The translations under genes were made by a program, and so were the position numbers. This document shows, piece after piece, positions 13,057 to 33,700 of a DNA stretch of 64,000 bases (position 1 is its first letter; every line of letters begins with the position of its first letter). Source of the stretch: a virus; IMG/VR virus record IMGVR_UViG_3300025849_000009; one strand, written 5' to 3'. The notes beneath the pieces were generated by a model. The model made no database searches, had not been told where the DNA came from, and saw only the letters and a program-made list of their open reading frames with translations.

Positions 13057-14388
13057 TTATTTCTTTCTCATAAATGATACATTAATGTATCTTTTCCCAC
13101 TGTGTATTGGTCTGGCACCATGTTTATGTGTAATCATTCCTGGGTGAATGGTTGCAGTGCCCACTAATTTTGGATTTGATAATATTTTATATTTTGGAAA
13201 CCATGTACCGCCTCCATCAAACTCATCGTTTAATTTTACTACCATTGTAATATGACTAAAGTCGTGATGTAAACTTAAATGAGATTGTCTATCAGTAGTG
13301 TATCTTACCATAAAGTTTTCAGTATCCATATTGTCCCAACCTGCACCTTCTAATTCCCATAAATGTATACAAAGAGGAGAAACTATTTCTCTTACAACTC
13401 TATTATAAATATGATCTAATCCTATTTCTGGTAATAAGACATCGTTTGTTGGATAAAATTCGTGTCTGTCTTTTGTCCATTTATCCATAACTTCTGCCAA
13501 ACCTACGGCTTCTTTACAGAATTTTTCTGTAAATAATGGAAACTCATAAATATTATTTCCTATATCATCTACCATTAAATCATATTCACCCTTAGATACC
13601 GTTTCGTTTACATATTTTGATTTCCATGAATCCCAATCACTATCATCTAATATTTCGAAATATGGTTGTGTTTTCAATAAATTAATATTCGCATCATATG
13701 GTTCTGTCATAGATTGTTCATGCGGTCTATTTTGTTCTATCCAATTATCAACTGGAGCTATCGCTTTAAGTTTTGGTGGAAACAGTATATTAATATCTTG
13801 TCTTCTATGCTCTGTATATGTTGCTGTTAAGAATTCGTCGGGTGCAATTAGATTTTGTTTAAAGTTATAATCATTGACTAGTATTTTTGCAGTGTCTCTT
13901 TTAATTACATACGCGTGTGTATTATAACTACTAAGAGCTGTTACCCATTTATTACTTGCATCAATTCTTTTTTCATCCTTAGAACATATAGCATTTCTAC
14001 CTAAAAATGCAATATCCCATTCTGTATTTGGAATAACTGGATTTGTAAGCGGAGCTACTGAAACAAAATCATCTTCTAATATTAATGCACAATTGACATT
14101 GTTTTCTATTATATTGTTCCATATACTTAAGTGGCTAATTGCACAACCTGCTTCTCCACCAGTAACATCTCTTTTCCACCAATCATTCCATGAATCAGAT
14201 CCTAAATTCCATAAATCATATACACTATGTCCATCTAATAAATTACCTGAAGTTCCATCAAAACCTTGAACTATTTCCCATTCTACAGAATATGGCATAC
14301 CAAGTTGATCTACCCTGGTGGCAATGTTTCTCTGAATACTTGGATCTCCGGCATTCAAACTTATAATATAAATTTTATCTATTTTCAT
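13057..14388 (-). CDS. GT25 glycosyltransferase fused to PLOD-like lysyl hydroxylase (2OG-Fe(II) oxygenase)
   Basis: N-terminal IYIISL, GE.GCAISH..IW, LILEDD, THAY; C-terminal FPLF..FC, NFMVRY...Q..L..HHD.S, GGGT.F, HPG..TH.H, RYI.VSF; start MKIDK overlaps upstream stop. Confidence 0.88.
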   Translation of the reverse strand: MKIDKIYIISLNAGDPSIQRNIATRVDQLGMPYSVEWEIVQGFDGTSGNLLDGHSVYDLWNLGSDSWNDWWKRDVTGGEAGCAISHLSIWNNIIENNVNCALILEDDFVSVAPLTNPVIPNTEWDIAFLGRNAICSKDEKRIDASNKWVTALSSYNTHAYVIKRDTAKILVNDYNFKQNLIAPDEFLTATYTEHRRQDINILFPPKLKAIAPVDNWIEQNRPHEQSMTEPYDANINLLKTQPYFEILDDSDWDSWKSKYVNETVSKGEYDLMVDDIGNNIYEFPLFTEKFCKEAVGLAEVMDKWTKDRHEFYPTNDVLLPEIGLDHIYNRVVREIVSPLCIHLWELEGAGWDNMDTENFMVRYTTDRQSHLSLHHDFSHITMVVKLNDEFDGGGTWFPKYKILSNPKLVGTATIHPGMITHKHGARPIHSGKRYINVSFMRKK

Positions 14389-15404
14389 ATAGATTCTAAT
14401 ATGTTTTTCCAATCATATGATCTGGCATTCCATGTTTGTTGTTTAGACCATTTATAAGCATCATTAATTGATTTATCTTTAAGTCCACTACTTAGTGTAC
14501 CTAGTATTTGTATAACCTGATTCCAATTTGTTTCATTTCTTTCTAAGATAACTCCACTATTTACAGTCTCTTTTAATGCTGCTACCGTGGTAACAATAGG
14601 TAATACTTTGGCATATTGCATTTCAAGCGCAGTAATACAATATGTTTCTTCATAATCAGTTACATAGCACCAATATTCTGCACGTAACATTGCAGCGTGT
14701 AATGTTTCTTGATCTACTGTACCATGACACGTAACTTCTTCAAACTTATTAAATGAATAGTCAGTATGATTTGCTATAGAATAGCCTGGAGAATATATGT
14801 CTAATGTTGCATGTGGCATTATATCTTTTATCTTTGGCCAGTTTTTTAATAATTCTAATAAGCCACGTTCAGGTGCAGAACTATATATGAATTTACCTTT
14901 TATTTTTTCAGGAGTACCATTAAATGTCGAAGGATCAATGGCATTACCAATCACTGAGATTTTATTTAAAGGTATATTATATGTGTGTGCCCAATGATTC
15001 TTATGCCAGTTAGTCAAACAAATTGTATGATCAACTTGTTGTGTTAAAATGTTTGCGTCTCCTAACACTTTATGATTCCACCATGGGTGATGATGTGTAT
15101 TATGTGCCCAAAATACTTTCTTTGCTGAATACCCTTCAAACTCTTTTAGAAAATGGATATAACTTGCAGATATAATATAATCAAACTGATCAAAATATTT
15201 TTCATGAACAGTATGTGTTGATATCCATTCTACACCATCAATTAAACCAGAATCTTTTACTTCACCAGAAACCACAACCTTATAACCAAATTTAACTATC
15301 TCTTTAGCTATATTAATTATAGCAATTTCAGTTCCTGCTAATCCAATACTGGTATTGCTATCAAATTTGTTTTTTTGATAACCCGCATAAAATAATATTC
15401 TCAT
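14385..15404 (-). CDS. GT-B (GT4-like) glycosyltransferase
   Basis: GTE, YSS.P.RGL..LL..WP, ETYCITALE. Confidence 0.88.
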   Translation of the reverse strand: MRILFYAGYQKNKFDSNTSIGLAGTEIAIINIAKEIVKFGYKVVVSGEVKDSGLIDGVEWISTHTVHEKYFDQFDYIISASYIHFLKEFEGYSAKKVFWAHNTHHHPWWNHKVLGDANILTQQVDHTICLTNWHKNHWAHTYNIPLNKISVIGNAIDPSTFNGTPEKIKGKFIYSSAPERGLLELLKNWPKIKDIMPHATLDIYSPGYSIANHTDYSFNKFEEVTCHGTVDQETLHAAMLRAEYWCYVTDYEETYCITALEMQYAKVLPIVTTVAALKETVNSGVILERNETNWNQVIQILGTLSSGLKDKSINDAYKWSKQQTWNARSYDWKNILESI

Positions 15405-15452: not shown

Positions 15453-16364
15453 TTAGTTCTTATTTCTTTTAACTTTAGGTGGAGCGTCTATAAACCAACC
15501 CTTATAATATTCTCTTTTTTCATAGATATAATTCATGTAATCATCCACTTTGCCCTTCCAATCTTCATCAATTGCTGGATTTATAATTCCAGATTTGTAA
15601 CTAGAAAAAACCTGATTAATCCATTCTGCACCGCTTTCTTTATTATCATAAAGACTAGAGTTTATAGTATAAAAAGATCCTCTGCTTATATTATTCCACA
15701 CATCCATTGGATAAACTTCTTTTTCAAGAACAACAGAATATAATGCACTTTCACTAATGTGTGTACTATATACTGTTTTAGCTTTTTGTAAAAAGTAATA
15801 AAGATCTATGTCTCTTGGTAAAATAGATTCTTCACCAAATAAATCTTTAATTTCACCTATAACTGCATGTGTAGTAATAGGATGTGGTTTAAAATAAACA
15901 TCACCTTTATGTTTCTCAGCAACTTCAATTAATTTATTTAAACAACAATTTTCTTTAAGCTTATTTGAACCTGGTAAAATAACCAAAGTGCTTTTATCTT
16001 CATATCTGTCGAAATCTTTCTTGCGATTTTGATATTTATTAGCTTGATCTTTTTCGATATTTTCTTTAAAGTAAGATACCCAATCATAGACGTGTTCGAC
16101 ATCATGTACTAAAGCATCAGCAATTTGTTCTCTTCTCATTTTGAGATTTAGTGGTTGCATTAAAAAACAAGTAGCATATTCTGTATATCCCATTGTTTTA
16201 AAGTACGGCATTTCTTCTGCTATAACATCATAACTGTGTTCTAATCCAAGTTCTCTACATTTTCTTAAAACATATCGTTCCACTTGTTCGAGTGGTTCTA
16301 GTTTTGTATTTTTCTTTAGAGGCCCAATTCTTTCATTTAGCACCTTTTTGTTAAACATTTCCAT
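15453..16364 (-). CDS. Putative CMP-sugar (Kdo/sialyl-type, KpsS/KpsC-like) glycosyltransferase
   Basis: YFKPHP motif followed by a ...V.S..ISES.L.S.VL.K.V segment typical of HP-motif GT-B enzymes; assignment tentative. Confidence 0.55.
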   Translation of the reverse strand: MEMFNKKVLNERIGPLKKNTKLEPLEQVERYVLRKCRELGLEHSYDVIAEEMPYFKTMGYTEYATCFLMQPLNLKMRREQIADALVHDVEHVYDWVSYFKENIEKDQANKYQNRKKDFDRYEDKSTLVILPGSNKLKENCCLNKLIEVAEKHKGDVYFKPHPITTHAVIGEIKDLFGEESILPRDIDLYYFLQKAKTVYSTHISESALYSVVLEKEVYPMDVWNNISRGSFYTINSSLYDNKESGAEWINQVFSSYKSGIINPAIDEDWKGKVDDYMNYIYEKREYYKGWFIDAPPKVKRNKN

Positions 16365-16438: not shown

Positions 16439-16468
16439 CAAAAAAAAAGCATACCTAAGTATGCTTTT
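16439..16468 (-). terminator. Intrinsic terminator after the Thr-rich gene pair
   Basis: AAAGCATAC-TTAG-GTATGCTTT followed by long T run. Confidence 0.8.
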
Positions 16469-16487
16469 TAAATTAATTGAGTTATTT

Positions 16488-19310
16488 CTAGTTACCATTA
16501 TAACTGTTTACTCTCCATTGTCTATTTGTATTATAAACATCTAGTGGTTCGTTAGTTGAATACCAAGTTTCTTGTACTTCGTAATCTGTACTCCACGTTG
16601 TAGTAATAGCACTTGTTGTAGATCTCGTTGTGTTCCACGTTGTTGTTGTGTTCCATGTGGTATTCCACGAAGTAGTAACACTATAGATAGTTGACCATAT
16701 AGTCGTTGTCGATTTAGATGTCGCTGCATTTGTATTAAATGTAGTCGTAGTTGATCTAGTCGTATTAAATGTGGTCGTAGTCGAGTGGCTTGTATTAAAT
16801 GTAGTCGTAGTCGTTTTAGACGTTGTTTGAGACGTATTAAATGTTGTCACCCATGATGTAGTCCATGAAGTTGTCGTTGACTGATTAGTATTAAACGTTG
16901 TCAACCAAGTTGTATTAAATGTAGTTATAGTTGACTTACTAGTTTGATATTGTGTAGTCCACGATGTTGTACGTGTATAGTTTGTAATTCTACTAGTTTC
17001 CCAAGTTGTTGTCCATGCAGTTGTCGTCGCATGTTCTGTTCCCCTATTAGTTCCTCTGGATGTACTCCATATAGTTACTGTCGAATGAGACGTTCCATGA
17101 TTCGTAGACTGGGACGTATTAAACGTAGTCGTAGTTGAATGCTCTGTTGACCTAGTTGTATTCCATGAAGTAGTCCATGAAGTATTGAACGTAGTTACTG
17201 TAGATTTACTTGTTGACCATGTTGTTGTAAACGTAGTCGTTGTTGAATGTTCTGTTCCTCTAGTCGTGTTCCATGAAGTTGTCCATGATGTATTGTAAAC
17301 TGTAGTCGTTGCTCTAGTCGTATTCCATGATGTGTTAAAAACTGTAGTAGTCACATGCTCTGTTCCTCTAGTCGTGTTCCATGAAGTTGTCCATGAGGTA
17401 GTATAACTCGTCGTCGTAGCTCTACTAGTTGACCATGTTGTATTAAATGTAGTTGTTGTAGATTTAGTCGTTGACTGATTAGTATTAAACGTCGTTGTCC
17501 ATGAGGTAGTATAACTCGTCGTCGTAGCTCTACTAGTTGACCACGTTGTATTAAATGTAGTTGTTGTAGATTTAGTCGTTGACTGATTAGTATTAAACGT
17601 TGTCACCCACGAAGTAGTCCACGAAGTTAACGTTGTTTTAGTTGTGTTCCATGTTGTGTTATAAACCGTAGTAGTTGACCTAGAAGTTGACTGATTTGTA
17701 TTAAAAGTAGTAGTCGTTGTTCTAGAAGTAGATCTCTTTGTATTTCGCGATGTTATCCAAGTAGTATTAAATGTTGTCGTAGTCGATTTGCTAGTTGACC
17801 ACGCTGTATTGTAAACTGTTGTTGTGGTTTTATTCGTGCCTCTGGTTGTGTTCCATGAGGTAGTCCACGAAGTAGTCCACGAAGTTAGCGTTGATTTAGT
17901 TGTGTTCCATGATGTGTTATAAACCGTAGTAGTTGACCTAGAAGTTGACTGACTTGTATTAAATGTTGTCGTAGTCGATTTACTAGTTGATCTAGTTGTA
18001 TTTCTTGATGTTGACCAGGTTGTCGTAAATGTTGTCGTAGTCGATTTACTTGTTGACTGGCTTGTATTAAAAGTTGTAGTTGTAGATTTATTAGTTCCTC
18101 TACTAGTTCCTCTTACGGTGTTCCATGAAGTTGTCCATGTAGTTACAGTGGATTTGCTAGTTGACTGACTTGTATTAAAAGTTGTCGTTGTTGCTCTAGT
18201 TGTGTTCCATGTCGTTGTAGTAGATTTACTAGTTGACCATGTTGTAGTCCAATTAGTTGTAGTAGATTTACTAGTTATAAACGTCGTTGTAGTAGATTTA
18301 CTAGTTGCAAATGTAGTAGTAGTTGAATGTTCCGTTGATCTACTAGTTATAAATGTTGTTGTAGTAGATTTAGACGTATTAAACGTAGTCGTTGTCGATT
18401 TACTAGTTGCCCATGTAGTCGTGGTTGCACGCGTTGTATTCCTATGAGTTGCAAATGTAGTTGTAGTAGATTTAGACGTATTAAACGTAGTCGTTGTTGA
18501 TTTACTAGTTGCCCACGTAGTCGTGGTTGCACGCTCCGTTGACTGACTTGTACTAAATGTAGTCGTTGTTGATTTACTAGTTGCCCATGTAGTCGTGGTT
18601 GCACGCGTTGTATTCCAAGATGTATTATATACAGTCGTTGTTGTTTTAGTTGTGTTCCACGTCGTTGTAGTTGCGCGTGATGTATTCCATGTAGTCGTGG
18701 TTGCACGCTCCGTTGACTGACTTGTACTAAATGTGGTCGTGGTTGCACGTGTTGTATTAAATGTTGTTGTGGTTGCACGTGTTGTATTCCACGAAGTAGT
18801 CCACGAAGTTAGCGTTGATTTAGTTGTATTGAACGTCGTCGTCGTAGCTCTAGTTGTATTCCAAGATGTATTGTATACGGTCGTGGTTGCACGCGTTGTG
18901 TTATACGTAGTCGTGGTTGCACGTGTTGTATTAAATGTTGTTGTTGTCGCCCTAGATGTAGATTGACTTGTATTCCACGACGTCGTAGTCGCCTTAGACG
19001 TATTCCACGTCGTCGTAGTCGCCCTAGACGTATTCCACGTCGTCGTAGTCGTCTTAGATGTACTCTTACTTGTATTATATGTCGTCGTCGTATTTTTATC
19101 TGTGAACCATGACGTCGTAACTTTAGTTGACCACCCCGTTGAAGTAGATTTATCTGTAAGTACATTCCAATAGGTAGTTTTTGCCGTATTCCTAGAAGTT
19201 GCCCTATTATATGACGTGTATAATGAAGTTGTTCGAGAATAACTAGTCGTCTTCAACGTGCTCCTAGATCCGGCGGTTAACCAAGTAGTATTAAAAAAAG
19301 TAGTAGGCAT
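16488..19310 (-). CDS. Thr-rich repeat protein, zipper strand P1 (940 aa)
   Basis: About 55 units of a 2-aa linker plus 4-aa blocks, aromatic T-x-(W/F/Y)-x or basic T-x-(R/K/Q/H)-x; antiparallel complement of P2. Confidence 0.9.
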   Translation of the reverse strand: MPTTFFNTTWLTAGSRSTLKTTSYSRTTSLYTSYNRATSRNTAKTTYWNVLTDKSTSTGWSTKVTTSWFTDKNTTTTYNTSKSTSKTTTTTWNTSRATTTTWNTSKATTTSWNTSQSTSRATTTTFNTTRATTTTYNTTRATTTVYNTSWNTTRATTTTFNTTKSTLTSWTTSWNTTRATTTTFNTTRATTTTFSTSQSTERATTTTWNTSRATTTTWNTTKTTTTVYNTSWNTTRATTTTWATSKSTTTTFSTSQSTERATTTTWATSKSTTTTFNTSKSTTTTFATHRNTTRATTTTWATSKSTTTTFNTSKSTTTTFITSRSTEHSTTTTFATSKSTTTTFITSKSTTTNWTTTWSTSKSTTTTWNTTRATTTTFNTSQSTSKSTVTTWTTSWNTVRGTSRGTNKSTTTTFNTSQSTSKSTTTTFTTTWSTSRNTTRSTSKSTTTTFNTSQSTSRSTTTVYNTSWNTTKSTLTSWTTSWTTSWNTTRGTNKTTTTVYNTAWSTSKSTTTTFNTTWITSRNTKRSTSRTTTTTFNTNQSTSRSTTTVYNTTWNTTKTTLTSWTTSWVTTFNTNQSTTKSTTTTFNTTWSTSRATTTSYTTSWTTTFNTNQSTTKSTTTTFNTTWSTSRATTTSYTTSWTTSWNTTRGTEHVTTTVFNTSWNTTRATTTVYNTSWTTSWNTTRGTEHSTTTTFTTTWSTSKSTVTTFNTSWTTSWNTTRSTEHSTTTTFNTSQSTNHGTSHSTVTIWSTSRGTNRGTEHATTTAWTTTWETSRITNYTRTTSWTTQYQTSKSTITTFNTTWLTTFNTNQSTTTSWTTSWVTTFNTSQTTSKTTTTTFNTSHSTTTTFNTTRSTTTTFNTNAATSKSTTTIWSTIYSVTTSWNTTWNTTTTWNTTRSTTSAITTTWSTDYEVQETWYSTNEPLDVYNTNRQWRVNSYNGN

Positions 19311-19385
19311 TCTCTATCTCTGTTGTTTTTTTATATATTTAAATTCTTTAATCATTTTATTTCTTAAAAAGTCTCTTAGTACTAC

Positions 19386-22300
19386 TTACCAAGCACAATC
19401 ACGCTCAGAATAACATATAGAACGAAAATCGCAATAATCTTCTGGACTACACAGTTGTTCTTTGTTATTATGTGTTAAAATTCCATTTGCAAAGAATGTA
19501 TCATTAGGTTCTACATCTAATTTATAAACAGTATATTGATTAACTTCATCTATTTCTAAAGATTCTATCAGAAATTCTCCATAATCCATTTTAAACATAA
19601 CATCACCAATCTCTAGGTGCTCCGCTAGTTTTGCTTGCCACATACCATCTCTTTTTATAATATGTATATGTGCCATGGTAGTTCTTAATTGGTCATTATT
19701 TATGCTAACTGTTCCTATAACGTCTGCTCTCCAAATACCGGAAACATTATGTTCATTAGATAATGTATTTGTGTATACTTCTTCTTCCCTAATTGTTGGT
19801 AATACAGTCATGTCATCTGTATTAAATGCTCCATCCATAGTTAAAATACTCTGGCCATGCACTAACGTTTCAACTGGTCTTTGTATTCCTTCAGCAATAT
19901 GTACTAGTGTTCCTTCAACTATACATTCCTCTATTGTGCTTCTAGATGTTCCACGAGATGTGTTGACATACAATGCTGTATTGTAACTTGTGATATATGA
20001 AACTGATGTATTCCAGGAAGTTATTTGCCCTGCACCACCACCTGAACTATTATCTGCAGGAACTAAAGTAATCCATGTTGTTGTTTTAGTTGTTGATCTA
20101 GAATATCCTGTAGAAACCTTTGTAATAGTTGACTTACTTGTATTTCTGTCAGTTACCCTAGAAGTTGCAAACCTAGTATTAGTAGATTTACTAGTTGCAA
20201 AAGTGGTCGTGTACGTCGTTGTCGTCGATCTACTAGTTGCAAATGTCGTTGTCGTCGATCTACTAGTTGCAAATGTTGTTGTTGTATTTCTACTAGTGAT
20301 CCAGTAAGTTGTCCATGCAGTTGTCGTCGATTTACTAGTTGACCAAGTTGTTGTTGTCGATCTACTAGTTGCAAATGTCGTTGTCGTCGTATGCTCTGTG
20401 CTTCTACTAGTACTAAATGTAGTCGTTGTAGATCTACTAGTTGCAAATGTTGTTGTTGTATTTCTACTAGTTCCTCGAGTCGTACCAAAAGTGGTCGTTG
20501 TTGATTTAGTTGTGTTGAACGTCGTCGTTGTTGACCTAGTTGTATTCCAAGATGTATTGTATACAGTCGTGGTTGCACGCGTTGTGTTCCAATTAGTTGT
20601 AGTAGATTTACTAGTAGCAAATGTTGTTGTGGTAGAATGCTCTGTGCCTCTACTAGTACTAAATGTAGTCGTTGTTGATTTAGTTGTGTTCCACGTCGTC
20701 GTCGTAGCTCTAGTTGTATTCCAAGATGTATTGAACACTGTAGTTGTAGACTGACTTGTATTCCATGTAGTCGTTGTTGATCTAGTTGTATTGTATACGG
20801 TCGTTGTTGATCTAGTTGTATTCCATGTTGTTTTAAATGTAGTCGTTGTAGACTGACTTGTATTCCATGTAGTCGTTGTTGATCTAGTTGTATTATATAC
20901 GGTCGTTGTTGATTTAGTTGTATTCCAAGATGTATTGTATACAGTCGTTGTTGCTCTAGTTGTGTTCCACGTCGTCGTTGTTGATCTAGTTGTGTTCCAT
21001 CGTGTTGTTGTTGACTTACTAGTAGACTGATTTGTGTTAAATGTTGTTGTCGTCGATTTACTAGTAGCAAATGTTGTTGTGGTAGATTTACTAGTTGACC
21101 ATGTTGTATTAAACGTAGTCGTTGTGTTTTTGGACGTTGATTTGGAAGTCAACACAGTTGTGTTCCATGAAGTTGTCCATGAAGTTGTAGTAGCTCTACT
21201 AGTTGACCACGTTGTATTAAATGTAGTTGTTGTAGATTTAGTCGTTGACTGACTTGTATTAAAGGTTGTACCAAATGTGGTTGTCCATGTAGTTGTCGTC
21301 GATTTACTAGTTGACCATGTTGTATTAAACGTAGTTGTTGTCGCATGCTCTGTGCTTCTACTAGTTACAAATGTTGTTGTTGTATTTCTACTAGTTGCTC
21401 TATTAGTTCCTCGACTTGTTACCCAAGTAGTTGTCCATGCAGTTGTTGTGGTGTGCGAAGTTGATTGACTAGTATTAAACGTAGTTGTTGTAGAACGATT
21501 CGTTGATCTAGTTGTATTCCATGAAGTAGTCCAAGCTGTGTCAAAAGTAGTAGTTGTAGATTTACTTGTTGACCATGTTGTTGTAAACGTAGTCGTTGTC
21601 GAATGTTCTGTTCCTCTACTTGTTACCCATGTTGTTGTGGTATTTTTACTAGTCGCCTTAGACGTTGATTTACTAGTAGACCAAGTTGTTGTCCATGTAG
21701 TTACTGTAGATTTACTTGTTGACTGACTTGTATTAAAAGTCGTTGTCGTAGATTTAGTAGTTGACCTAGAAGTTGACTTACTAGTTGACCAAGTTGTCGT
21801 AAATGTTGTTGTTGTTGATTTACTTGTTGACTGACTTGTATTAAAAGTTGTAGTTGTCGATTTACTAGTTACTTTACTTGTTGTTTGACTAGTGATCCAA
21901 GTTGTATTATATGTCGTTGTTGTCGAACGAGATGTTGATTGACTAGTACTAAACCTGGTCGTTGTTGAATGTTCAGTGCTTCTAGAAGTTATCTGAGATG
22001 TAATCCAAGTTGTATTATATGTAGTCGTTGTTGATCTAGATGTCGACTGATTTGTGTTAAATGTTGTTGTAGTACTACGATTAGTAGATCTTGTTGTCGT
22101 TTGACTAGTGATCCACGTTGTATTATACACTGTTGTTGTAGATCTATTAGTTGACCATGACGTTGTATATGTCGTAATATAAGAAGTTGTCGTTGATTTA
22201 CTTGTATTCCAAGAAGTTGTCCAATATGTAGTGTATGATGTAGTTGTACTTCTAGATGTGGATTGACTTGTGTTCCAGGTTGTTTCAACAGGATACAATG

Positions 22301-22736
22301 TGGATTGACTAGTTGTCCAACTAGTTGTCCATGTAGTAGTTGTAGCCCTCTCAGTTGATTGTGACGTGTTTTTAGAAGTCGACCATGTTGTTGTTGTAGT
22401 TCTATCAGTTTCTAAAGATGTTTCTCTAGAAGTGCTCCATGATGTAGTCCACGATGTTGTCGTTGATCTAGAAGTTGCATATACAGTATTAGTACTACGA
22501 GATGTATTGAAAGTTGTTGTTGTCGATTTACTAGTTGCCCATGTAGTGATCCATGTTGTCACCGTGGATTGACTAGTATTTCGTACTTTGTTAGTAGTTC
22601 TCGAAGTATTTCTATTTTCAGATGTAGTTTTGGAAGTAGCCCAAGTAGTATTCTTAGCTACGAGTGTACCCTTAGATGTATTCTGTGCACTTCCGGTACT
22701 CCAAAAGTCGATTCTTGAAAATCCTATATTCTTCAT
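19386..22736 (-). CDS. Thr-rich repeat protein, zipper strand P2 (937-aa repeat region + Hint domain + 26-aa Cys-rich tail)
   Basis: Same block grammar as P1; Hint domain CIVEGT...TTMAH...LDVE...GILTHN at aa 938-1090. Confidence 0.9.
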   Translation of the reverse strand: MKNIGFSRIDFWSTGSAQNTSKGTLVAKNTTWATSKTTSENRNTSRTTNKVRNTSQSTVTTWITTWATSKSTTTTFNTSRSTNTVYATSRSTTTSWTTSWSTSRETSLETDRTTTTTWSTSKNTSQSTERATTTTWTTSWTTSQSTLYPVETTWNTSQSTSRSTTTSYTTYWTTSWNTSKSTTTSYITTYTTSWSTNRSTTTVYNTTWITSQTTTRSTNRSTTTTFNTNQSTSRSTTTTYNTTWITSQITSRSTEHSTTTRFSTSQSTSRSTTTTYNTTWITSQTTSKVTSKSTTTTFNTSQSTSKSTTTTFTTTWSTSKSTSRSTTKSTTTTFNTSQSTSKSTVTTWTTTWSTSKSTSKATSKNTTTTWVTSRGTEHSTTTTFTTTWSTSKSTTTTFDTAWTTSWNTTRSTNRSTTTTFNTSQSTSHTTTTAWTTTWVTSRGTNRATSRNTTTTFVTSRSTEHATTTTFNTTWSTSKSTTTTWTTTFGTTFNTSQSTTKSTTTTFNTTWSTSRATTTSWTTSWNTTVLTSKSTSKNTTTTFNTTWSTSKSTTTTFATSKSTTTTFNTNQSTSKSTTTRWNTTRSTTTTWNTTRATTTVYNTSWNTTKSTTTVYNTTRSTTTTWNTSQSTTTTFKTTWNTTRSTTTVYNTTRSTTTTWNTSQSTTTVFNTSWNTTRATTTTWNTTKSTTTTFSTSRGTEHSTTTTFATSKSTTTNWNTTRATTTVYNTSWNTTRSTTTTFNTTKSTTTTFGTTRGTSRNTTTTFATSRSTTTTFSTSRSTEHTTTTTFATSRSTTTTWSTSKSTTTAWTTYWITSRNTTTTFATSRSTTTTFATSRSTTTTYTTTFATSKSTNTRFATSRVTDRNTSKSTITKVSTGYSRSTTKTTTWITLVPADNSSGGGAGQITSWNTSVSYITSYNTALYVNTSRGTSRSTIEECIVEGTLVHIAEGIQRPVETLVHGQSILTMDGAFNTDDMTVLPTIREEEVYTNTLSNEHNVSGIWRADVIGTVSINNDQLRTTMAHIHIIKRDGMWQAKLAEHLEIGDVMFKMDYGEFLIESLEIDEVNQYTVYKLDVEPNDTFFANGILTHNNKEQLCSPEDYCDFRSICYSERDCAW
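19467..19925 (-). other. Hint (intein-like/BIL) autoprocessing domain within P2
   Basis: Cys1, block-B TxxH, block-F Asp, terminal His-Asn; +1 residue Asn; no endonuclease. Confidence 0.88.
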
Positions 22737-22761: not shown

Positions 22762-25485
22762 TTACGCAAAATTTCCAATGTAGTTAACTAATACTGCGTC
22801 AACATCTATTATAATATATGATATAATAGATACTGCACCAGGAGTAGTTACCCATTGAATGTCAGCACCTGAGGGTGTTTTCATATAGGATGGTAATGCA
22901 TTGTATCCTGCACCTACACCATTATAGATTACTATAGTTCCAGATTGACCTACGTTGTCGTTACCTATGTTAGACATTGTAATATCAATTGATCCCGTTG
23001 CTGTAAATGCAAATGCGTCACCTTGATCAGGCTTAATGTCATAAACACCTCCAACACCGTTAACCGATATAATATCTCTTTTTAAAGCACCTGTTAAATA
23101 TAAATCATGATGCTCAACATTTGAATCTGTTTTTGTATGTTGATCCATTGCAGTTGCATAGGTATTAGAAGTACCAGTATTACCTTTTAAACCTGAAGAA
23201 CCTGAAGAACCACTTGATCCAGAAGATCCGTTAGTTCCATCAGTTCCTGAAGAACCTGAAGTTCCGTTTGTTCCTGAAGTTCCATTCGTTCCTGAAGTTC
23301 CATTCGTTCCTGAAGTTCCATTCGTTCCTGAAGAACCACTAGATCCACTTGAACCTGAAGTTCCGTTTGTTCCACTAGTTCCATCAGTTCCTGAAGAACC
23401 TGAAGTTCCGTTAGTTCCACTTGTACCGTCAGTTCCTGAACTTCCACTTGAACCTGAAGATCCGCTTGTACCATTCGTTCCACTTGTACCATTTGTACCA
23501 GACGTTCCATCAGTTCCTGAACTTCCACTTGATCCACTTGATCCTGAAGTTCCATCGGTTCCTGAAGTTCCGTTAGTTCCTGAAGTTCCATCAGTTCCTG
23601 AACTTCCACTTGAACCTGAACTTCCATCAGTTCCTGAAGAACCTGAACTTCCATTTGTTCCATTAGTCCCTGAAGAACCAGCTGGTCCTTGAATAGAACC
23701 GCCTCCAATCCAACCATCTGCTTGTGTAAATACCCAAAGAGAATCGTCTGATTGTACTATATATGCATCACCGTCAGAATTACCGCTTGTTGGTAAATTT
23801 GATGATGTAGCTACTTGTCCTTGCATTGAAACACCCCAACCTGGATTACCTTGTGCACCTGAAGATCCACTTGATCCAGAAGATCCACTAGAACCATCCG
23901 TTCCTGAAGAACCCGAACTTCCGTTTGTTCCATTCGTTCCACTTGTACCATTGATACCACTAGTTCCATCAGTTCCTGAACTTCCGTTTGTTCCACTTGT
24001 ACCGTCAGTTCCTGAAGAACCTGAACTTCCATTAGTTCCTGAAGTTCCATTCGTTCCTGAAGTTCCATTTGTTCCTGAAGTTCCATCAGTTCCTGAACTT
24101 CCACTTGAACCTGAAGATCCACTTGATCCGTTAGTTCCTGATGTTCCATTCGTTCCTGAAGTTCCATCAGTTCCTGAACTTCCATCAGTTCCTGAGCTTC
24201 CACTTGATCCGTCAGTTCCTGAAGTTCCATTCGTTCCTGAAGTTCCATCAGTTCCTGAAGTTCCATCAGTTCCTGAAGAACCGCTTGAACCCGAACTTCC
24301 ATTTGTTCCATCAGTTCCTGAACTTCCATTTGTTCCTGAAGTTCCATCAGTACCGCTTGTACCTGGAGCTCCTTTTTGTCCTTTAACACCGCTCGATCCA
24401 GAAGATCCGTTAGTTCCATTAATTGCTGGAGTTCCAGGAGCACCTTTAGCTCCGGTTGCACCAACGGGAATAGTAAAATCAAATTCAGCTGCAGTTGAGG
24501 TTCCAGTATTAGTAACACTTACTGGTGTATTTTCTAATCCAGTAGATACTGTTCCTACTGCAATTGTACCTGTAATTCCTGAAGATCCGCTTGAACCTGA
24601 ACTTCCGCTTGATCCATCAGTTCCTGATGTTCCAACATATACTACTCTACCTACAATTTCATTGCCATTTTGAGAATGAGTTAATATTAAATTATTTCCA
24701 GATAAAGTTGCTCCACTATAATTGTCACCTTTAACACCATCAACTCCACTTGTTCCATCCGTTCCTGAAGATCCACTAGAACCATCCGTTCCTGAAGTTC
24801 CGTTAGTTCCACTAGTACCATCAGTTCCTGAACTTCCACTTGATCCACTTGATCCTGAAGTTCCATCGGTTCCTGAAGTTCCGTTAGTTCCTGAACTTCC
24901 ACTTGAACCGTTTGTTCCCGAAGAACCTGAAGTCCCACTTACACCACTCGTTCCATCAGTTCCTGAACTTCCACTTGATCCATTTGATCCCGAGGTTCCT
25001 GATGTTCCAACATCACCAATAGGTTGAATAAACATAAATAAAGAATCATTATCACTAACATTATTCCAATTAGAACTTGAAATAGGTTGTAAGTTAAATG
25101 TTCTTTGTCCAGAAGCAGTTGTGTTTCCTGTTACATAGAATGATTTATTTGCATTACCATCAGTTGATTTTGCTAATACAATAATAGACTTATAACTATT
25201 AGATGAAGCGACTGCAGCATTTAATGTTACGGTTGCTGAACCACCTCTAGCATTAGTTTCACTTACAATTATTTTACTAGGATTACTAGGATTATCAAAC
25301 GCTAAATCACCAGAAGAAACTGTCGTGGGATTTGTTGCGTTATTATAAACATAAGGAAGTCCAAACGTATTTGGTAATTGTTGGTTTTCATACTTTCCGG
25401 TACTTGCATTATATGACAATACTTCACCAGTAGATGGAGAAGAAGATAAAAAGTCAAGTATTTGTTTTAATTTCAATTGAGACAT
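22762..25485 (-). CDS. Gly-X-Y (collagen-like, GTS/GTD/GSS) fibre protein
   Basis: Long G-X-Y runs between globular ends; GDAYIV knob. Confidence 0.85.
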   Translation of the reverse strand: MSQLKLKQILDFLSSSPSTGEVLSYNASTGKYENQQLPNTFGLPYVYNNATNPTTVSSGDLAFDNPSNPSKIIVSETNARGGSATVTLNAAVASSNSYKSIIVLAKSTDGNANKSFYVTGNTTASGQRTFNLQPISSSNWNNVSDNDSLFMFIQPIGDVGTSGTSGSNGSSGSSGTDGTSGVSGTSGSSGTNGSSGSSGTNGTSGTDGTSGSSGSSGSSGTDGTSGTNGTSGTDGSSGSSGTDGTSGVDGVKGDNYSGATLSGNNLILTHSQNGNEIVGRVVYVGTSGTDGSSGSSGSSGSSGITGTIAVGTVSTGLENTPVSVTNTGTSTAAEFDFTIPVGATGAKGAPGTPAINGTNGSSGSSGVKGQKGAPGTSGTDGTSGTNGSSGTDGTNGSSGSSGSSGTDGTSGTDGTSGTNGTSGTDGSSGSSGTDGSSGTDGTSGTNGTSGTNGSSGSSGSSGSSGTDGTSGTNGTSGTNGTSGTNGSSGSSGTDGTSGTNGSSGTDGTSGINGTSGTNGTNGSSGSSGTDGSSGSSGSSGSSGAQGNPGWGVSMQGQVATSSNLPTSGNSDGDAYIVQSDDSLWVFTQADGWIGGGSIQGPAGSSGTNGTNGSSGSSGTDGSSGSSGSSGTDGTSGTNGTSGTDGTSGSSGSSGSSGTDGTSGTNGTSGTNGTSGSSGSSGSSGTDGTSGTNGTSGSSGTDGTSGTNGTSGSSGSSGSSGTNGTSGTNGTSGTNGTSGTNGTSGSSGTDGTNGSSGSSGSSGSSGLKGNTGTSNTYATAMDQHTKTDSNVEHHDLYLTGALKRDIISVNGVGGVYDIKPDQGDAFAFTATGSIDITMSNIGNDNVGQSGTIVIYNGVGAGYNALPSYMKTPSGADIQWVTTPGAVSIISYIIIDVDAVLVNYIGNFA

Positions 25486-26180: not shown

Positions 26181-27392
26181 TTACTTATATAGATTTGTTT
26201 TCCAATCATATGTAGATCTTAGTTTATGATCCTTAATTCCCATTGTGGTTTCAATTAATTGTTTATATGTTTCTATTAAACCCTCGTTAAATACAGTATA
26301 TCTAGTTAAAACCCTTTCGCTATTTTCATTATATGCTTCTATGTTATTGTCATGATTTTCGATAGCCTGTTTAAGTTGTCGAGAACCCTGTCCAATTAAG
26401 TTACCATCATAATAATATCCGGCGTCCTTAATCATGTGTGCGTTATGTACTAGTGGAAACTGTAAATAGAGTGCGTCTAAGTATGAATAATTTAATGGAT
26501 TAGTATGTTGGTGTGCAATAACTACATCTGTTAATTGGGCCATAGCATCAATAGCTCTTAGTCTAGGGAGGTATGATAATTTATGATCTGTTGTTCCAGA
26601 TAATTTACATAATGAAAGGTGTGTTAATAAAGATTGATAATATTTGTTTTTTATAATGTCTTCACCACACATGATATTTAGTTTTTTAAATTTACCTCCT
26701 TTATTATAATAATCTTCTGCTATCAATAAATTTATAAAGTGCCATTTTTGTGTGCCAATATTGGGTTCAAAACATGCAATTTGTTTGTCTTTATTTTCTT
26801 TTCCAGGAACATACACTGGAACTGGTCTGTTTTCAATTATTGTCTTTGGATTATTATACACTTCACATGTTTTGTCTAAAAATACAGGATCCCATACAAA
26901 AGGAACGGGTCTTACTTTATTTACTGGTAAATTATGCATTACTCTATAATATTCAATATTATTTTCGCCCTGTTGTGGAACATACCACGCTTCGTCCAAT
27001 AATTGATTATATCCGGTAGCATCAGGTCCAATATTAAACATAGCACCCTCTAAATCATTCAGATAATTATTACCACAAATATATTTGACTACTTTTTTAC
27101 CATAACCTGTTTTCTTAAACTCCTCTATAGTTTTATCGCCGTAAGTTGCACCCAACCAAATCATAAGATCTGTATCTGCATACTTGTCATAGTAATCGTA
27201 TATTGGGAATTGTTCAATATCCCATGTTACTTTGTTCTCATAAGGAGCTTTGACTTCACTTGCATTTAATATGTATACATTATATCCTATTTCTTTCAAA
27301 GCTTTTAATAAATAAAGCGCATTTAGTTTTATACCATTTATCCAAAGACTTTCATTCTCTGATCCTAAACTTATAGTAATTCCTATATTCAT
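26181..27392 (-). CDS. DUF2827-like putative glycosyltransferase
   Basis: IGITI...SLWINGI, PFVWDP.F, FEPNI...K, HQ..NPLNY.YLD.LY..PLVHN....D.GYYY. Confidence 0.7.
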   Translation of the reverse strand: MNIGITISLGSENESLWINGIKLNALYLLKALKEIGYNVYILNASEVKAPYENKVTWDIEQFPIYDYYDKYADTDLMIWLGATYGDKTIEEFKKTGYGKKVVKYICGNNYLNDLEGAMFNIGPDATGYNQLLDEAWYVPQQGENNIEYYRVMHNLPVNKVRPVPFVWDPVFLDKTCEVYNNPKTIIENRPVPVYVPGKENKDKQIACFEPNIGTQKWHFINLLIAEDYYNKGGKFKKLNIMCGEDIIKNKYYQSLLTHLSLCKLSGTTDHKLSYLPRLRAIDAMAQLTDVVIAHQHTNPLNYSYLDALYLQFPLVHNAHMIKDAGYYYDGNLIGQGSRQLKQAIENHDNNIEAYNENSERVLTRYTVFNEGLIETYKQLIETTMGIKDHKLRSTYDWKTNLYK

Positions 27393-30796: not shown

Positions 30797-33700
30797 TTAA
30801 AATTTAAATATTATAAATGCGTGAGCTTCTTTAGTTGTTTGACCGAATCCACCAGCATTTCTTACTGCATCGATATTACCCATACCTAAATCTAATTTAA
30901 TTTTAGCTGCACTAAAGTTAGTGAATAAATCAGTTGTAACTTGATTACCAATACTAAAACTAGATGAGTGCGCAGATTCTGTAATACCCTGTGCATAGAA
31001 TGATGCGTTGTTACCACCACCGTCTAAATGTGTTATAACATATCTTGAATTGTTGGCTTGATATGCATATACAAGGATTGCTTTCGGTGGTTGATTTTGA
31101 CCACTGAATGAAAATTCTTGATTATCACCAGCACGTGTTCCTATAGATGCGTTAGATGTTTCAAATACACCTGATCCACTTGGATCGATAAATTCACACC
31201 CACCTAAAGCTTGCGATGCAGTGTATTCTGCTCTTACACAATAATAAGTTCCACCTGATCCAGTTGCAACGTCTGACCATTCAACTGCGTAATCAACATT
31301 TGAAGATTTAACAAGTGCTTGACCCGTTGTTCCTCCTCCTGCAATTCCAGATCCATTTGCTCCAGCTGCTCCTTCCGGCCCCTGTGGTCCTTCCGGTCCT
31401 TGCGGTCCGGTGGCTCCATTAGCTCCGTCAACTCCATCAATACCTGAAGTTCCGGCGTCACCTTGATCACCTTTAACTCCATTGATTCCAGATGTTCCAT
31501 TAACTCCTGAAGTTCCATTTGTTCCTGAAGTTCCGGCGTCACCTTGATCACCTTTAGCTCCATCAACTCCTGAAGTTCCATCAACTCCTGATGTTCCATC
31601 GTTTCCATCAACTCCTGAAGTTCCATTTGTTCCTGAAGAACCATCTGTTCCTGAAGTTCCAGCGTCACCTTGATCACCTTTAGCTCCGTCAACTCCTGAA
31701 GTTCCATCGTTTCCATCAACTCCTGAAGTTCCATTAACTCCTGAAGTTCCATTTGTTCCTGAAGTTCCAGCGTCACCTTGATCACCTTTAGCTCCATCAA
31801 TTCCAGATGTTCCGTCAACTCCTGAAGTTCCAGCATCACCTTGATCACCTTTAGCTCCATTAATTCCTGAAGTTCCAGCGTCACCTTGATCACCTTTAGC
31901 TCCATCAACTCCTGAAGTTCCATTTGTTCCTGAAGTTCCAGAAAGTCCTGAAGTTCCGTCGCTTCCGTCAACTCCATCAATACCTGAAGTTCCATCAACT
32001 CCTGAAGTTCCACTAATTCCTGAAGTTCCATTGTTTCCGTCAACTCCATTATTACCAGCATCACCTTTATCACCTTGAGGACCTTGATCTCCTTGATCTC
32101 CTTTAAGACCATTAATTCCTGAAGAACCATTAGTTCCTGAAGTTCCATCGTTTCCATCAACTCCATTAATACCTGAAGTTCCATCAACTCCAGATGTTCC
32201 ACTAATTCCAGAAGTTCCATCTACACCATTGTTACCAATATTACCTTGATCACCTTTGGCTCCATCAACTCCTGAAGTTCCATTTATTCCTGAAGTTCCA
32301 TTAACTCCTGAAGTTCCATCGTTTCCGTTATTTCCTGGAAGACCTTGATCACCTTGATCACCTTTGGCTCCATTGTTTCCGTCAACTCCATCAATACCTG
32401 AAGTTCCATCAACTCCTGAAGAACCTGAAACACCTGAAGTTCCATCATTACCATTGATGCCGTTAGCTCCATCTTTACCAGATGTTCCATCGACACCGCT
32501 TGCACCTTGATCACCTTTAAGACCTTGTGCACCGTCTGCTCCATTAACTCCGCTTGTTCCGTCAACTCCATCGTTTCCGTCAATACCAGATGTTCCACTA
32601 ATACCTGACGTTCCAGCGTCACCTTGATCACCTTTAAGACCTTGAATACCTTGATCACCTTGATCACCTTTAAGACCTTGAAGACCTTGATCACCTTGAT
32701 CACCTTTAGCTCCATCAACTCCATTGACTCCATTGACTCCATCAACTCCATCAATACCTGAAGTTCCATCATCACCTTTAGCACCGTCAATACCTGAAGT
32801 TCCAGATTGGCCGTTAATTCCAGATGTTCCATCAACTCCATTAATACCTGAAGTTCCATCTAATCCTCTTAAACCTTGTGCTCCGTCAACTCCACTTGTT
32901 CCATCAGTACCTGAAGTTCCAGCTTGACCAATATCACCTTGTGCTCCTGTTTCACCATCTTTACCAGATGTTCCATCGACACCCCTTAGACCTTGTTCAC
33001 CTTGAAGACCTTGATCACCTTGATCACCTTTAGCACCATCAATTCCTGAAGTTCCATCAATTCCTGAAGAACCAGATGTTCCAGAAGTTGTAACAGTTAC
33101 TGAAGGGAAAACAACTTCAACTTTTCCGTCATTTAAATTATTAATAACTGCACCTCCTGAAAACGTAAGACTATTAACCTCGTCAATAGCTACATCGCCT
33201 TGTGGTATAATTGAAATACCAGCTGATGGTGAAGAATAAGATTCGCTAAAAATACCAAGTTCATCACCTACTCCGATCTTATAATCAGATCCAGAAATAA
33301 ATGAATTTCCTTCTGATTGTACGTGTAATTCAATAGCATCACTTGAGTCGTTGTTTATTGGATTATCAGGATTAACATTTAATACATCTACATATGACCA
33401 TGTTTTAATTTCAAATGCAGAGTATTCACTATTGTTATTTACATTGGTTAAGAATAAAGAAACTTTAACTCCGTCAACATTAATTCTATTTAATAGTATA
33501 GACTCTAAATAATTATTTCTATATCCTTTATCGTCTGTTAAAGCAATTCTAATTTTAGTAACACCATTAGGATCTTCGTCATTTATAACTAATTCTCCAC
33601 TAGCAGGTTTATCTGTAGAACTTAAAGACTTAACTTTATATACAGCACCAGGTAATGTGAATCTACTTGCAACTATATCACCTATTTTATCACCAGCATC

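What the first reader, a model, noticed from the sequence alone, without database searches (positions are those of the whole stretch)
16488..22736. Two adjacent genes encode reverse-complementary proteins: an 800-residue aromatic:basic zipper code
Seen: both proteins parse into units made of a 2-aa linker (mostly TT) plus 4-aa blocks. Blocks are A = T-x-(W/F/Y)-x or B = T-x-(R/K/Q/H)-x. P1 (16488-19310, aa 74-867) reads ABB,AB,AB,ABB,AB,AB,AAB,AB,AAB,AB,ABB,...,ABB,AABBB,ABB,AABBB,ABB,AAB,AAABB,AAB,AABBB,...,ABBB,ABBB,...,AAAB,AAABB,AB,AB,ABB. P2 (19386-22736, aa 58-851), with units taken from the C-terminal end, gives the swap: AAB,AB,AB,AAB,AB,AB,ABB,AB,ABB,AB,AAB,...,AAB,AAABB,AAB,AAABB,AAB,ABB,AABBB,ABB,AAABB,...,AAAB,AAAB,...,ABBB,AABBB,AB,AB,AAB. 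By hand, all ~55 units match in length (794 aa in each protein) in one register, i+j=928. About 170 key positions set an aromatic opposite a basic/amide residue, with about 5 exceptions (R:V, W:L, A:W, Y:W, Y:V). The irregular inserts (TNYTRT and TLYPVE) face each other. The register also extends into the non-repetitive ends: W872:Q56, Y876:R52, W882:R46, W886:R42, W892:K36, R896:W32, W906:K22, Y910:Q18. Removing the Hint domain leaves P2 at 937 aa versus 940 aa for P1. Both genes are on the same strand, so this is not a DNA inverted repeat. Known: Trp/Arg cation-pi ladders between antiparallel strands occur in thrombospondin type-1 repeats and cytokine-receptor WSxWS domains, but only over a few residues. 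Inference: P1 and P2 form an antiparallel beta-ribbon heterodimer (about 260-270 nm if fully extended), with the aperiodic order fixing a single register, like base pairing. It could be a virion fibre or a molecular ruler. I know of no described system like this.
Basis: partly seen in the sequence, partly recalled or inferred. Interest (0 to 1): 0.97.

Follow-up and report, generated by a model that had tools for sequence, protein, structure and literature searches.

The report
Two-gene mirror-coded phage fibre zipper
Two neighbouring genes of an uncultured large phage encode threonine-rich proteins that match each other residue by residue in reverse order (aromatic opposite basic) over about 850 positions. 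Related phages keep this match through mirrored insertions, so the two chains almost certainly zip together into one very long fibre held in register by a pairing code not described in any paper I found.

Summary
P1 (16488-19310, minus strand, 940 aa) and P2 (19386-22736, minus strand, 1116 aa) show one gapless antiparallel register, i+j=928. It holds 183 aromatic:basic pairs and 303 Thr:Thr pairs. The peak scores 177, the next register 71, and unit-shuffled controls average 32 (z=26).

It is not a DNA inverted repeat. Three other lineages (L001/L002, L004, L009) have the same gene pair, and each is complementary only to its own partner. About a dozen indels between lineages are mirrored in the partner gene at the mirrored position and with the same length. 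There is also a sub-code: His faces only Tyr, Gln almost only Trp, and Phe only Arg or Lys.

The same code occurs within single chains elsewhere. Examples are a roughly 260-residue-per-arm hairpin on baseplate-wedge proteins of Stenotrophomonas phage DLP6 relatives, and small "lollipop" proteins whose two arms covary in length (r=0.88). Earlier notes of this scan report similar single-chain cases on other DNA.

P2 ends in a conserved Hint domain with Cys1, TxxH and terminal His-Asn. It lies at the point where P2's C-terminus meets P1's N-terminus.

Best reading: a split fold-back beta-ribbon fibre, about 270 nm long if extended, with a self-processing Hint cap at its tip. Structure predictors gave no usable model. 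I found no paper describing this.

The parts
19386..22736 (-). P2 gene (1116 aa): first arm of the zipper, followed by the Hint domain and a Cys tail
   Evidence: ORF and translation. Complementary to P1 at i+j=928.
22566..22736 (-). P2 aa 1-57: conserved N-terminal cap (MKNIGFSRIDFWSTGS...) at the open, probably proximal, end. It faces P1 aa 871-927.
   Evidence: The register continues into this stretch. The motif is conserved in L004 and in P0058.
20184..22565 (-). P2 aa 58-851: coded repeat arm (a 2-aa TT linker plus 4-aa A or B blocks)
   Evidence: Unit parse and reverse-swap match to P1. On the key face 225 of 225 Thr face Thr and the other 172 positions are key-residue pairs.
19926..20183 (-). 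P2 aa 852-937: irregular tip-side segment with a Gly-rich bulge (PADNSSGGGAG), ending at Glu937 just before the Hint Cys
   Evidence: The register is ambiguous here in the window but flush in L004.
19467..19925 (-). Hint (intein-like) domain, P2 aa 938-1090: Cys1, a TTMAHIH block and terminal FFANGILTHN. The +1 residue is Asn.
   Evidence: Conserved in 7 sequences. The profile hits solved Hint/intein chains at E 5e-7 to 1e-4. Pfam Hint_2 and Intein_splicing hits are below threshold.
19389..19466 (-). 26-aa tail with four Cys (C-x5-C-x5-C-x5-C) after the Hint domain
   Evidence: The Cys positions are conserved in L001, L002, L004 and P0032. Its role is unknown.
19311..19385 (-). 75-nt spacer between P2 and P1 with a purine-rich stretch (AGAGATAGAGA) directly before the P1 ATG. 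No terminator-like site lies here.
16488..19310 (-). P1 gene (940 aa): second arm of the zipper
19092..19310 (-). P1 aa 1-73: irregular tip-side segment that faces P2 aa 855-937
16710..19091 (-). P1 aa 74-867: coded repeat arm
16491..16709 (-). P1 aa 868-940: C-terminal end at the open end of the ribbon. The last 13 aa overhang P2 Met1.
   Evidence: The 29-aa C-terminal fragment P0042 is 93% identical.
16444..16469 (-). Terminator-like stem-loop (11 pairs, then a T run) just after the P1 stop. No such site lies between P2 and P1, which suggests co-transcription.
   Evidence: This is a consensus scan only.

Best explanation
P2 (after removal or folding-away of its C-terminal Hint domain, 937 aa) and P1 (940 aa) pair along their whole length as antiparallel beta strands. 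P2 residue j lies opposite P1 residue 928-j. Every second residue points to one 'key' face, where Thr faces Thr and each aromatic residue faces a basic or amide residue: Tyr with His, Trp with Gln, Arg or Lys, and Phe with Arg or Lys. The other face is small and polar (Thr, Ser, Asn, Ala).

The order of unit types (AB, ABB, AAB, AABBB, AAABB...) is aperiodic, so only one register satisfies all pairs and slipped pairing is disfavoured. The product is a split fold-back beta ribbon, at least two-stranded and about 270 nm long if fully extended. P2's N-terminus and P1's C-terminus sit together at one end, probably the end attached to the virion. P2's C-terminus and P1's N-terminus sit together at the other end, the tip.

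The Hint domain sits at that tip. It most likely acts as a self-cleaving C-terminal cap, forming a thioester at Cys938 and cyclising Asn1090, and is removed during or after assembly.

Shown: the sequence complementarity, its co-evolution, the sub-code, the conserved Hint catalytic residues, and the phage context. Inferred: the beta-ribbon structure, the fibre role, which end attaches, and Hint cleavage.
For: There is a single gapless register with 183 aromatic:basic pairs and 303 Thr:Thr pairs, z=26 against unit shuffles.

Cognate pairs in other contigs show the same pattern: L001 at i+j=962 scores 180, L004 at i+j=1026 has 209 pairs, and the L009 fragment has 38 pairs. Window x L004 cross-combinations score only 75-84, which is background.

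Indels are mirrored in the partner gene at the mirrored position and with the same length. The few aromatic/basic flips are compensated on both sides.

Pair specificity is strong. His:Tyr is 14/14 in the window and 42/42 in L004, Gln:Trp is 28/30 and 23/24, and Phe never faces Gln or His (chi-square p 1e-22 to 1e-33). In L004 an extra Tyr on the other face lies opposite Gly 10 times, against 0.8 expected.

The same code occurs within single chains. DLP6-like baseplate-wedge proteins have a single self-antiparallel peak (76 against 28). In the 'lollipop' proteins two arms flank a globular middle, the arm lengths correlate (r=0.88), and indels are mirrored. The AF2 model of one lollipop has a confident middle domain and long strands 9-26/190-207 and 42-74/137-174, whose end positions sum to about 216 against 218 from the code.

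In L004 the last residue before the Hint Cys (1026) equals the register constant, so the two chains end flush at the tip. Mature lengths stay nearly equal in three lineages: 937/940, 971/974 and 1026/1042.

The Hint residues are conserved and the profile hits solved inteins and Hint domains. The same Hint subtype caps the C-terminus of other large Ig/FN3-rich proteins with only 3-9 residues after it.

The context is phage: PhoH, thymidylate synthase, collagen-like tail-fibre families, and Atlas neighbours that are 100% viral.
Against: No confident three-dimensional model of the Thr-rich arms exists. AF2 on the cis hairpin of the DLP6-like family gave a mean pLDDT of 36, and the distal arms of the lollipop model are below 50.

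As far as I know, no isolated two-stranded ribbon of about 850 residues has a solved precedent. It may need higher-order packing that the sequence does not reveal.

Both chains are strongly cationic (net +61 and +68, almost no Asp or Glu), which should oppose their association unless cation-pi pairing, counter-ions or glycans compensate.

The tip segments (P1 1-73, P2 852-937) leave the code.

The phage is uncultured, so there is no expression, virion or cleavage data.
Confidence: 0.72

Rival explanations
1. The pairing is the same, but the functional unit is a bundle. Three (or n) P1:P2 ribbons would pack into a six-stranded (2n-stranded) needle or tube, as the fold-back chains of the T4 gp37 needle do. 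The small Thr/Ser/Asn face would line the core or the interfaces between ribbons.
For: Trimeric fold-back needles are the known phage solution (T4 gp37: a trimer with an iron-lined needle, PMC6957217; the fold-back topology is from my own knowledge of PDB 2XGF). One whole face of each strand is small and polar and would suit tight packing. A lone 270-nm two-stranded ribbon seems mechanically weak.
Against: There is no second complementary register at small offsets: scores at +/-2 and +/-4 are near 0 in the window. The arms have no HxH metal motifs and no Cys. No sequence relative was found among solved structures.
Confidence: 0.3
2. The Hint domain does not simply cleave. Its thioester at P2 Glu937/Cys938 would be resolved by the N-terminal amine of P1, held next to it by the zipper. 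This would ligate the two chains into one covalent hairpin of about 1877 residues, equivalent to the single-chain relatives.
For: In L004 P1 Met1 faces P2 residue 1025 and the thioester residue 1026 is the next one, so the reacting groups would be adjacent. Gene order P2 then P1 equals the order of the arms in a single-chain hairpin. Single-chain forms of the same code exist. Hint domains are known to pass the upstream chain to a nucleophile (Hedgehog and cholesterol; own knowledge).
Against: P1 begins MPTT, MASY or MGGF with no N-terminal Cys, Ser or Thr, which efficient ligation chemistry needs. In the window a 10-residue bulge offsets the ends. The same Hint subtype caps unrelated proteins, although I did not examine their gene neighbourhoods for a partner gene. 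This points to a general cleavage role.
Confidence: 0.1
3. Each protein folds on its own, for example as a beta-solenoid or as a homo-oligomeric sheet. The mirror relation would then reflect side-by-side docking on a common third partner, or a shared constraint other than direct strand pairing.
For: The predictors did not return a paired model. Simple AB repeats are self-complementary and could also pair with themselves.
Against: Unit lengths vary aperiodically (10, 14, 18, 22 aa), which does not fit a regular solenoid. P1:P1 and P2:P2 complementarity is at background. Residue-specific pairing and mirrored indels of equal length at mirrored positions need residue-by-residue correspondence between the two chains. 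The Tyr:Gly compensation on the second face argues for direct contact.
Confidence: 0.06
4. The pattern is an artefact: a chance property of low-complexity repeats, or a consequence of a DNA or RNA inverted repeat.
For: Both genes are highly repetitive and Thr-rich (44% and 43%).
Against: The peak is z=26 above unit shuffles. No inverted DNA repeat was found. ACN codons cannot reverse-complement to ACN. The pattern recurs with different unit orders in independent contigs.
Confidence: 0.01

Closest known systems
Needle domain of the phage T4 long-tail-fibre tip, gp37 (PDB 2XGF; trimer with seven iron atoms, PMC6957217; fold-back topology from my own knowledge)
   Same: It is a phage fibre in which a chain runs out to a distal tip and back, so that antiparallel beta strands from the outgoing and returning segments form a long thin rod. 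The tip carries the functional head.
   Different: gp37 is one chain per hairpin and the needle is about 100 residues per arm. It is held by HxH-iron sites in a trimer core. Here the two arms are separate gene products of about 850 paired residues each, with no HxH, no Cys and no sequence similarity. The register is set by an aromatic:basic pairing code.
Single-chain 'mirror-coded' Thr-rich fibres. These include DLP6-like baseplate-wedge proteins (P0004 and relatives), small lollipop proteins (the P0037 family), and the cases in earlier notes of this scan (e1-5378795, e1-5729476). I found none of them described in the literature.
   Same: They share the same T-x-aromatic-x / T-x-basic-x blocks, the same antiparallel complementarity with mirrored indels, and phage origin.
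   Different: In those proteins both arms lie in one polypeptide, joined by a turn or a globular tip domain. Here the hairpin is split at the tip into two genes, and the tip carries a Hint domain.
Hint / intein superfamily: bacterial intein-like domains and the Hedgehog C-terminal autoprocessing domain
   Same: Cys1, the TxxH block and the terminal His-Asn are present. The profile matches solved inteins and Hint domains. The position at the extreme C-terminus, with a tiny or absent C-extein, resembles self-cleaving caps.
   Different: The +1 residue is Asn, Lys or Arg, so canonical splicing is excluded. Pfam scores are below the gathering thresholds. A conserved 4-Cys tail follows. I found no report of a Hint domain at the tip of a fibre.
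Cation-pi Trp/Arg ladders of thrombospondin type-1 repeats and cytokine-receptor WSxWS motifs; designed tryptophan-zipper hairpins (own knowledge)
   Same: Aromatic and basic side chains from neighbouring antiparallel strands pair across the sheet on one face.
   Different: Those ladders span a few residues, use WxxW spacing and disulfides, and lie within one domain. Here there is no WxxW and no Cys, pairs are spaced 4 or 6 residues apart with Thr between, and there are about 180 of them between two proteins.
C-terminal intramolecular chaperone domains of phage tailspikes and fibres, such as the endosialidase and T5 pb1 type (own knowledge)
   Same: A C-terminal domain of a fibre protein that is thought to assist assembly and then cut itself off.
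   Different: The fold and chemistry differ (a Ser-Lys dyad peptidase S74 against a Cys thioester Hint). This was not tested here.

Membership tests
Hint / intein superfamily (P2 aa 938-1090) | Nucleophilic Cys or Ser as the first residue of the domain | tested here: met
   Cys is invariant in 7 of 7 aligned sequences. It is P2 Cys938.
Hint / intein superfamily (P2 aa 938-1090) | Block B Thr-x-x-His | tested here: met
   TTMAHIH is present. The His is invariant and the Thr is present in most sequences.
Hint / intein superfamily (P2 aa 938-1090) | Significant sequence match to curated or solved Hint/intein domains | tested here: met
   The profile of A5 hits solved Hint-type and intein chains at E 4.8e-7 to 5.7e-4, and a bacterial intein-like domain at 0.02. 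The single-sequence Pfam hits Hint_2 and Intein_splicing score only 18 bits, below their cut-offs.
Splicing intein | Terminal His-Asn followed by a +1 Cys, Ser or Thr that accepts the N-extein | tested here: not met
   His-Asn is present, but the +1 residue is Asn (window), Lys (L001, L002), Arg (L004) or Ala (P0032). Only 26 residues follow. This is a cleaving or transferring Hint, not a splicing intein.
T4 gp37-type fibre needle | HxH iron-binding motifs along the arms | tested here: not met
   No HxH occurs in P1 or in P2 before the Hint domain, in any lineage.
T4 gp37-type fibre needle | Sequence similarity to gp37 or another solved fibre | tested here: not met
   phmmer of P1 against all PDB chains gave no hit at E<=1. 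Pfam gave no family.
T4 gp37-type fibre needle | Fold-back antiparallel topology with a tip at the turn | tested here: inconclusive
   The sequence complementarity implies this topology, but no confident 3D model was obtained.
Mirror-coded Thr-rich fold-back fibres (undescribed class; cis members P0004 family and P0037 family) | T-x-aromatic-x / T-x-basic-x blocks with a single antiparallel complementary register | tested here: met
   Window pair: peak of 177 at i+j=928. Cis relatives: single self-peaks.
Mirror-coded Thr-rich fold-back fibres (undescribed class; cis members P0004 family and P0037 family) | Indels in one arm mirrored in the other | tested here: met
   for the trans pairs; for the cis family (r=0.88).
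Thrombospondin type-1 / WSxWS cation-pi ladder domains | WxxW (or WSxWS) motif with stabilising disulfides in a small domain | tested here: not met
   There are zero WxxW motifs and zero Cys in the arms. No Pfam TSP_1 hit.
Collagen-like phage fibres (the neighbouring genes) | G-x-y triplet repeats (PF01391) | tested here: not met
   P1 and P2 have no Pfam hit, while the neighbour P0003 hits Collagen at 4.9e-70.

The most novel reading that the evidence does not exclude
Phages encode a protein-protein pairing code that works like base pairing between two separately translated chains. About 180 aromatic:basic cross-strand pairs, with at least three pair types (Tyr:His, Trp:Gln, Trp/Phe:Arg/Lys), are set in an aperiodic order that fixes one register over about 850 residues. 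This builds a heterodimeric beta-ribbon fibre about 270 nm long. A Hint domain placed exactly at the meeting point of the two chain ends nucleates, caps or even ligates the ribbon. If so, the code would be a natural, programmable, sequence-addressable beta-strand zipper.
Probability: 0.55. Interest if true: 0.95.

Novelty: categorically new. Interest (0 to 1): 0.93.

Why it matters
If the reading holds, this would be the first natural case I know of in which two long polypeptides recognise each other through a position-by-position, aperiodic complementarity code.

It would open a new structural class of phage fibre. Relatives sit on baseplate-wedge proteins of T4-like phages, and earlier unchecked notes of this scan report cis forms in phiKZ-like and T4-like phages.

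It would also explain how register is kept in very long repetitive beta structures, and it would offer a design rule for programmable beta-sheet heterodimers and nanofibres, with orthogonal pair types Tyr:His, Trp:Gln and Phe:Arg/Lys.

The co-evolution signal is as clear as RNA-helix covariation: indels and class flips in one gene are mirrored in a second gene. That makes the code directly testable with fragments.

The Hint domain at the junction of the two chains adds an unreported use of Hint chemistry in virion assembly.

Tried and rejected
Complex prediction of cognate fragments (P1 380-600 with P2 328-548, ESMFold2) returned 'no answer', with ipSAE 0.00 and the partner fold uncertain. It is neither support nor evidence against binding.

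AF2 of the cis hairpin of the DLP6-like family (18-sequence alignment A3) gave a mean pLDDT of 36.5 and only very long strands, so it is not usable.

Foldseek against PDB and VIA-align wide with the lollipop model gave nothing above noise: best E 0.25 and best Z 3.9. The only rows spanning the whole model were long pore-forming hairpins at Z about 3.

Pfam and PHROGs gave no family for P1 or P2.

The phage DNA database holds no nucleotide relative of the neighbouring region. No whole genome is held for this window.

IMG/VR holds only four contigs with this gene pair, whether searched with P1 or with the Hint profile.

Six literature searches found no description of such a fibre or code. One further search served only to locate a gp37 reference. 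The phiCbK paper that mentions a Hint domain was irrelevant.

A DNA or RNA inverted repeat was rejected (and codon logic). A second pairing register at small offsets, as expected for a closed barrel, was not seen.

The called genes of L009 flanking P0032 were wrong-frame readings of the Thr-rich genes. I re-read them in the correct frames.

Full report
**What is there.** Two adjacent ORFs lie on the minus strand: P2 (19386-22736, 1116 aa) and, 75 nt downstream, P1 (16488-19310, 940 aa). Both are about 44% Thr and have no Pfam or PHROG family. A terminator-like hairpin follows P1, and none lies between the genes. The window is a large uncultured phage. It carries PhoH, two thymidylate-synthase-like genes, an FtsH-like protease, several collagen-like tail-fibre-type proteins and glycosyltransferases. 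The nearest Atlas clusters of P1 are all viral and unnamed. No whole genome is held.

**Checking the observation.** I coded W/F/Y as +1 and R/K/Q/H as -1. The antiparallel cross-correlation of P1 and P2 has one peak, at i+j=928, scoring 177. The next register scores 71. P1:P1, P2:P2 and all parallel registers score 70 or less.
- The gapless alignment shows 183 aromatic:basic pairs and 303 Thr:Thr pairs.
- In the repeat core, all 225 key-face Thr of P1 face Thr of P2.
- Shuffling the units of P2 2000 times gave a maximum peak averaging 32 (highest 65), so z=26.
- No inverted DNA repeat links the genes, and ACN codons cannot reverse-complement to ACN. The relation therefore exists only at the protein level and must be maintained by selection.

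**Co-evolution.** IMG/VR holds four related contigs, and an ENA contig gives a further lineage.
- Each cognate pair has its own single register: L001 and L002 at i+j=962 (scores 180 and 176), L004 at i+j=1026 (score 204, 209 pairs over about 1000 residues), and the L009 fragment at i+j=240 (38 pairs).
- Combining P1 of the window with P2 of L004, or the reverse, gives only background (75-84).
- Between the window and L001, P1 gained 10 and 24 aa while P2 gained 24 and 10 aa, in mirrored order.
- Between the window and L004, about a dozen indel events in P1 each have a counterpart of the same length at the mirrored coordinate of P2. Examples are 44 aa at about 198-216, 36 aa, 14 aa, and several of 2, 4 and 6 aa.
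- The few aromatic/basic class flips are flipped on both sides.
- Mature lengths stay nearly equal: 937/940, 971/974 and 1026/1042.

**A finer code.** His faces only Tyr (14/14 in the window, 42/42 in L004). Gln faces almost only Trp (28/30 and 23/24). Phe faces only Arg or Lys (chi-square p 1e-22 to 1e-33). On the other face, Asn tends to face Ser and Glu tends to face Asn. In L004 an extra Tyr faces Gly 10 times, against 0.8 expected. Specificity on both faces argues for direct strand-to-strand contact.

**Relatives that carry the code within one chain.** P1 has only 41 relatives among 1.8 billion representative proteins.
- The longest are proteins of about 1250-1400 aa annotated as baseplate wedge subunit in Stenotrophomonas phage DLP6. 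Their N-terminal half is homologous to wedge proteins of T4-like rhizobial phages and cyanophages. Their C-terminal 550 residues show a single self-antiparallel peak (P0004: i+j=1949, 76 against 28). That corresponds to a hairpin of about 260 residues per arm.
- A second group is small proteins of 170-260 aa built as arm, globular middle, arm. Across 35 members the arm lengths correlate (r=0.88) and indels are mirrored. The AF2 model of one member has a confident middle domain (pLDDT 82-94) and long paired strands whose ends sum to about 216, against 218 from the code. The distal arms are low-confidence.
- Earlier notes of this scan report similar single-chain cases in other phage genomes.

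The window pair is therefore the split form of a wider, undescribed fibre type.

**The tip and the Hint domain.** In transcription order P2 comes first, and its C-terminal units pair with P1's N-terminal units. The two genes thus read as one hairpin cut at the turn.
- At that cut, P2 carries a domain with invariant Cys1, a TxxH block and a terminal FFANGILTHN, followed by a four-Cys tail.
- Its profile matches solved Hint and intein chains at E 5e-7 to 1e-4. Single-sequence Pfam hits are sub-threshold.
- The +1 residue is never Cys, Ser or Thr, so it is not a splicing intein.
- The same Hint subtype ends other large Ig/FN3-rich proteins with only 3-9 residues after it. This fits a general self-cleaving cap.
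- In L004 the residue before the Hint Cys is number 1026, equal to the register constant, so P1 Met1 sits next to the thioester residue. The window has a 10-residue Gly-rich bulge at this point.
- Ligation of the two chains is conceivable but lacks the usual N-terminal nucleophile. I rate it at 0.1.

**Mechanism proposed.** All key residues share one parity, so they lie on one face of an antiparallel ladder. Each aromatic:basic pair is boxed by Thr. The 2-aa linker only shifts the 4-residue phase. Because unit types follow an aperiodic order, any slipped register loses most pairs: 71 or fewer against 177, and like faces like at +/-6. This fixes the register of a ribbon that would otherwise slide. 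At 0.33-0.34 nm per residue, 800-850 paired residues give about 270 nm (inference). I did not establish whether single ribbons or bundles form, which end binds the virion, whether the Thr/Ser face is glycosylated by the neighbouring transferases, or how a net charge of about +129 is balanced.

**Comparison with known systems.** The nearest solved analogue in principle is the fold-back needle of T4 gp37 (PMC6957217; topology from my own knowledge). The arms here have no HxH, no Cys and no detectable similarity to any solved chain. Thrombospondin and WSxWS cation-pi ladders and designed Trp zippers share only the idea of cross-strand aromatic pairing. Literature searches found no description of this fibre or code.

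**Verdict.** Physical proof is missing because the structure predictors returned nothing usable.

Noticed in passing
window 22762-25485 (-), 30797-34090 (-), 59482-63894 (-): Three large collagen-like proteins (907, 1097 and 1470 aa; Pfam Collagen E 5e-70 and 4e-113; PHROG tail-fibre families). The first lies directly upstream of P2 on the same strand.
   Followed up: partly
window 13057-14412 (-), 14385-15404 (-), 26181-27392 (-), 55195-56442 (-): A cluster of sugar- and hydroxylation-related genes lies around the fibre genes. It includes a glucosyltransferase fused to a 2OG-Fe(II) oxygenase, another glycosyltransferase, DUF2827 and a GlcNAc-transferase family protein. They may modify the collagen-like or Thr-rich fibres.
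   Followed up: partly
window 15453-16364 (-); L001 8613-9524; L002 11005-11916; L004 16534-17445: A 303-aa protein of unknown function (phrog_26179) always follows P1. It has distant relatives in Caulobacter phages Cr30 and Lullwater and in Vibrio jumbo phages (24-26% identity). It could be an assembly factor or attachment partner.
   Followed up: partly
window 19389-19466 (-): The conserved C-x5-C-x5-C-x5-C tail after the Hint domain is absent from the related C-terminal Hint caps on other proteins (P0116-P0120).
   Followed up: partly
window 37145-39160 (-): A phage-encoded FtsH-like ATP-dependent protease (phrog_4871, E 1e-243).
   Followed up: no
window 36265-37119 (-) and 42408-43427 (-): Two thymidylate-synthase-type genes lie in one window (a PHROG thymidylate synthase hit and Pfam Thymidylat_synt). 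One may be a dCMP/dUMP hydroxymethylase-type enzyme for base modification.
   Followed up: no
window 43880-45377: A GC-rich stretch (0.46 against about 0.31) with no convincing ORF, tRNA or Rfam match, at the point where gene orientation switches.
   Followed up: partly
L009 1-2556: The public gene calls on this contig read the Thr-rich genes in the wrong frame (products such as 'HGQPAMRPQLHGQ...'). The true frames are 2-1237 and 1276-2556. Thr-rich repeat genes of this type may be miscalled on other contigs too, which could leave the family under-counted in protein databases; I did not check this beyond L009.
   Followed up: yes
P0055 (921 aa), P0013 (874 aa), P0028 (498 aa): Other metagenomic phage-like proteins combine shorter Trp-type coded arms with inserted Gly-rich or globular domains, or with N- or C-terminal globular domains. 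This suggests the coded ribbon is a modular stalk used in several architectures.
   Followed up: partly
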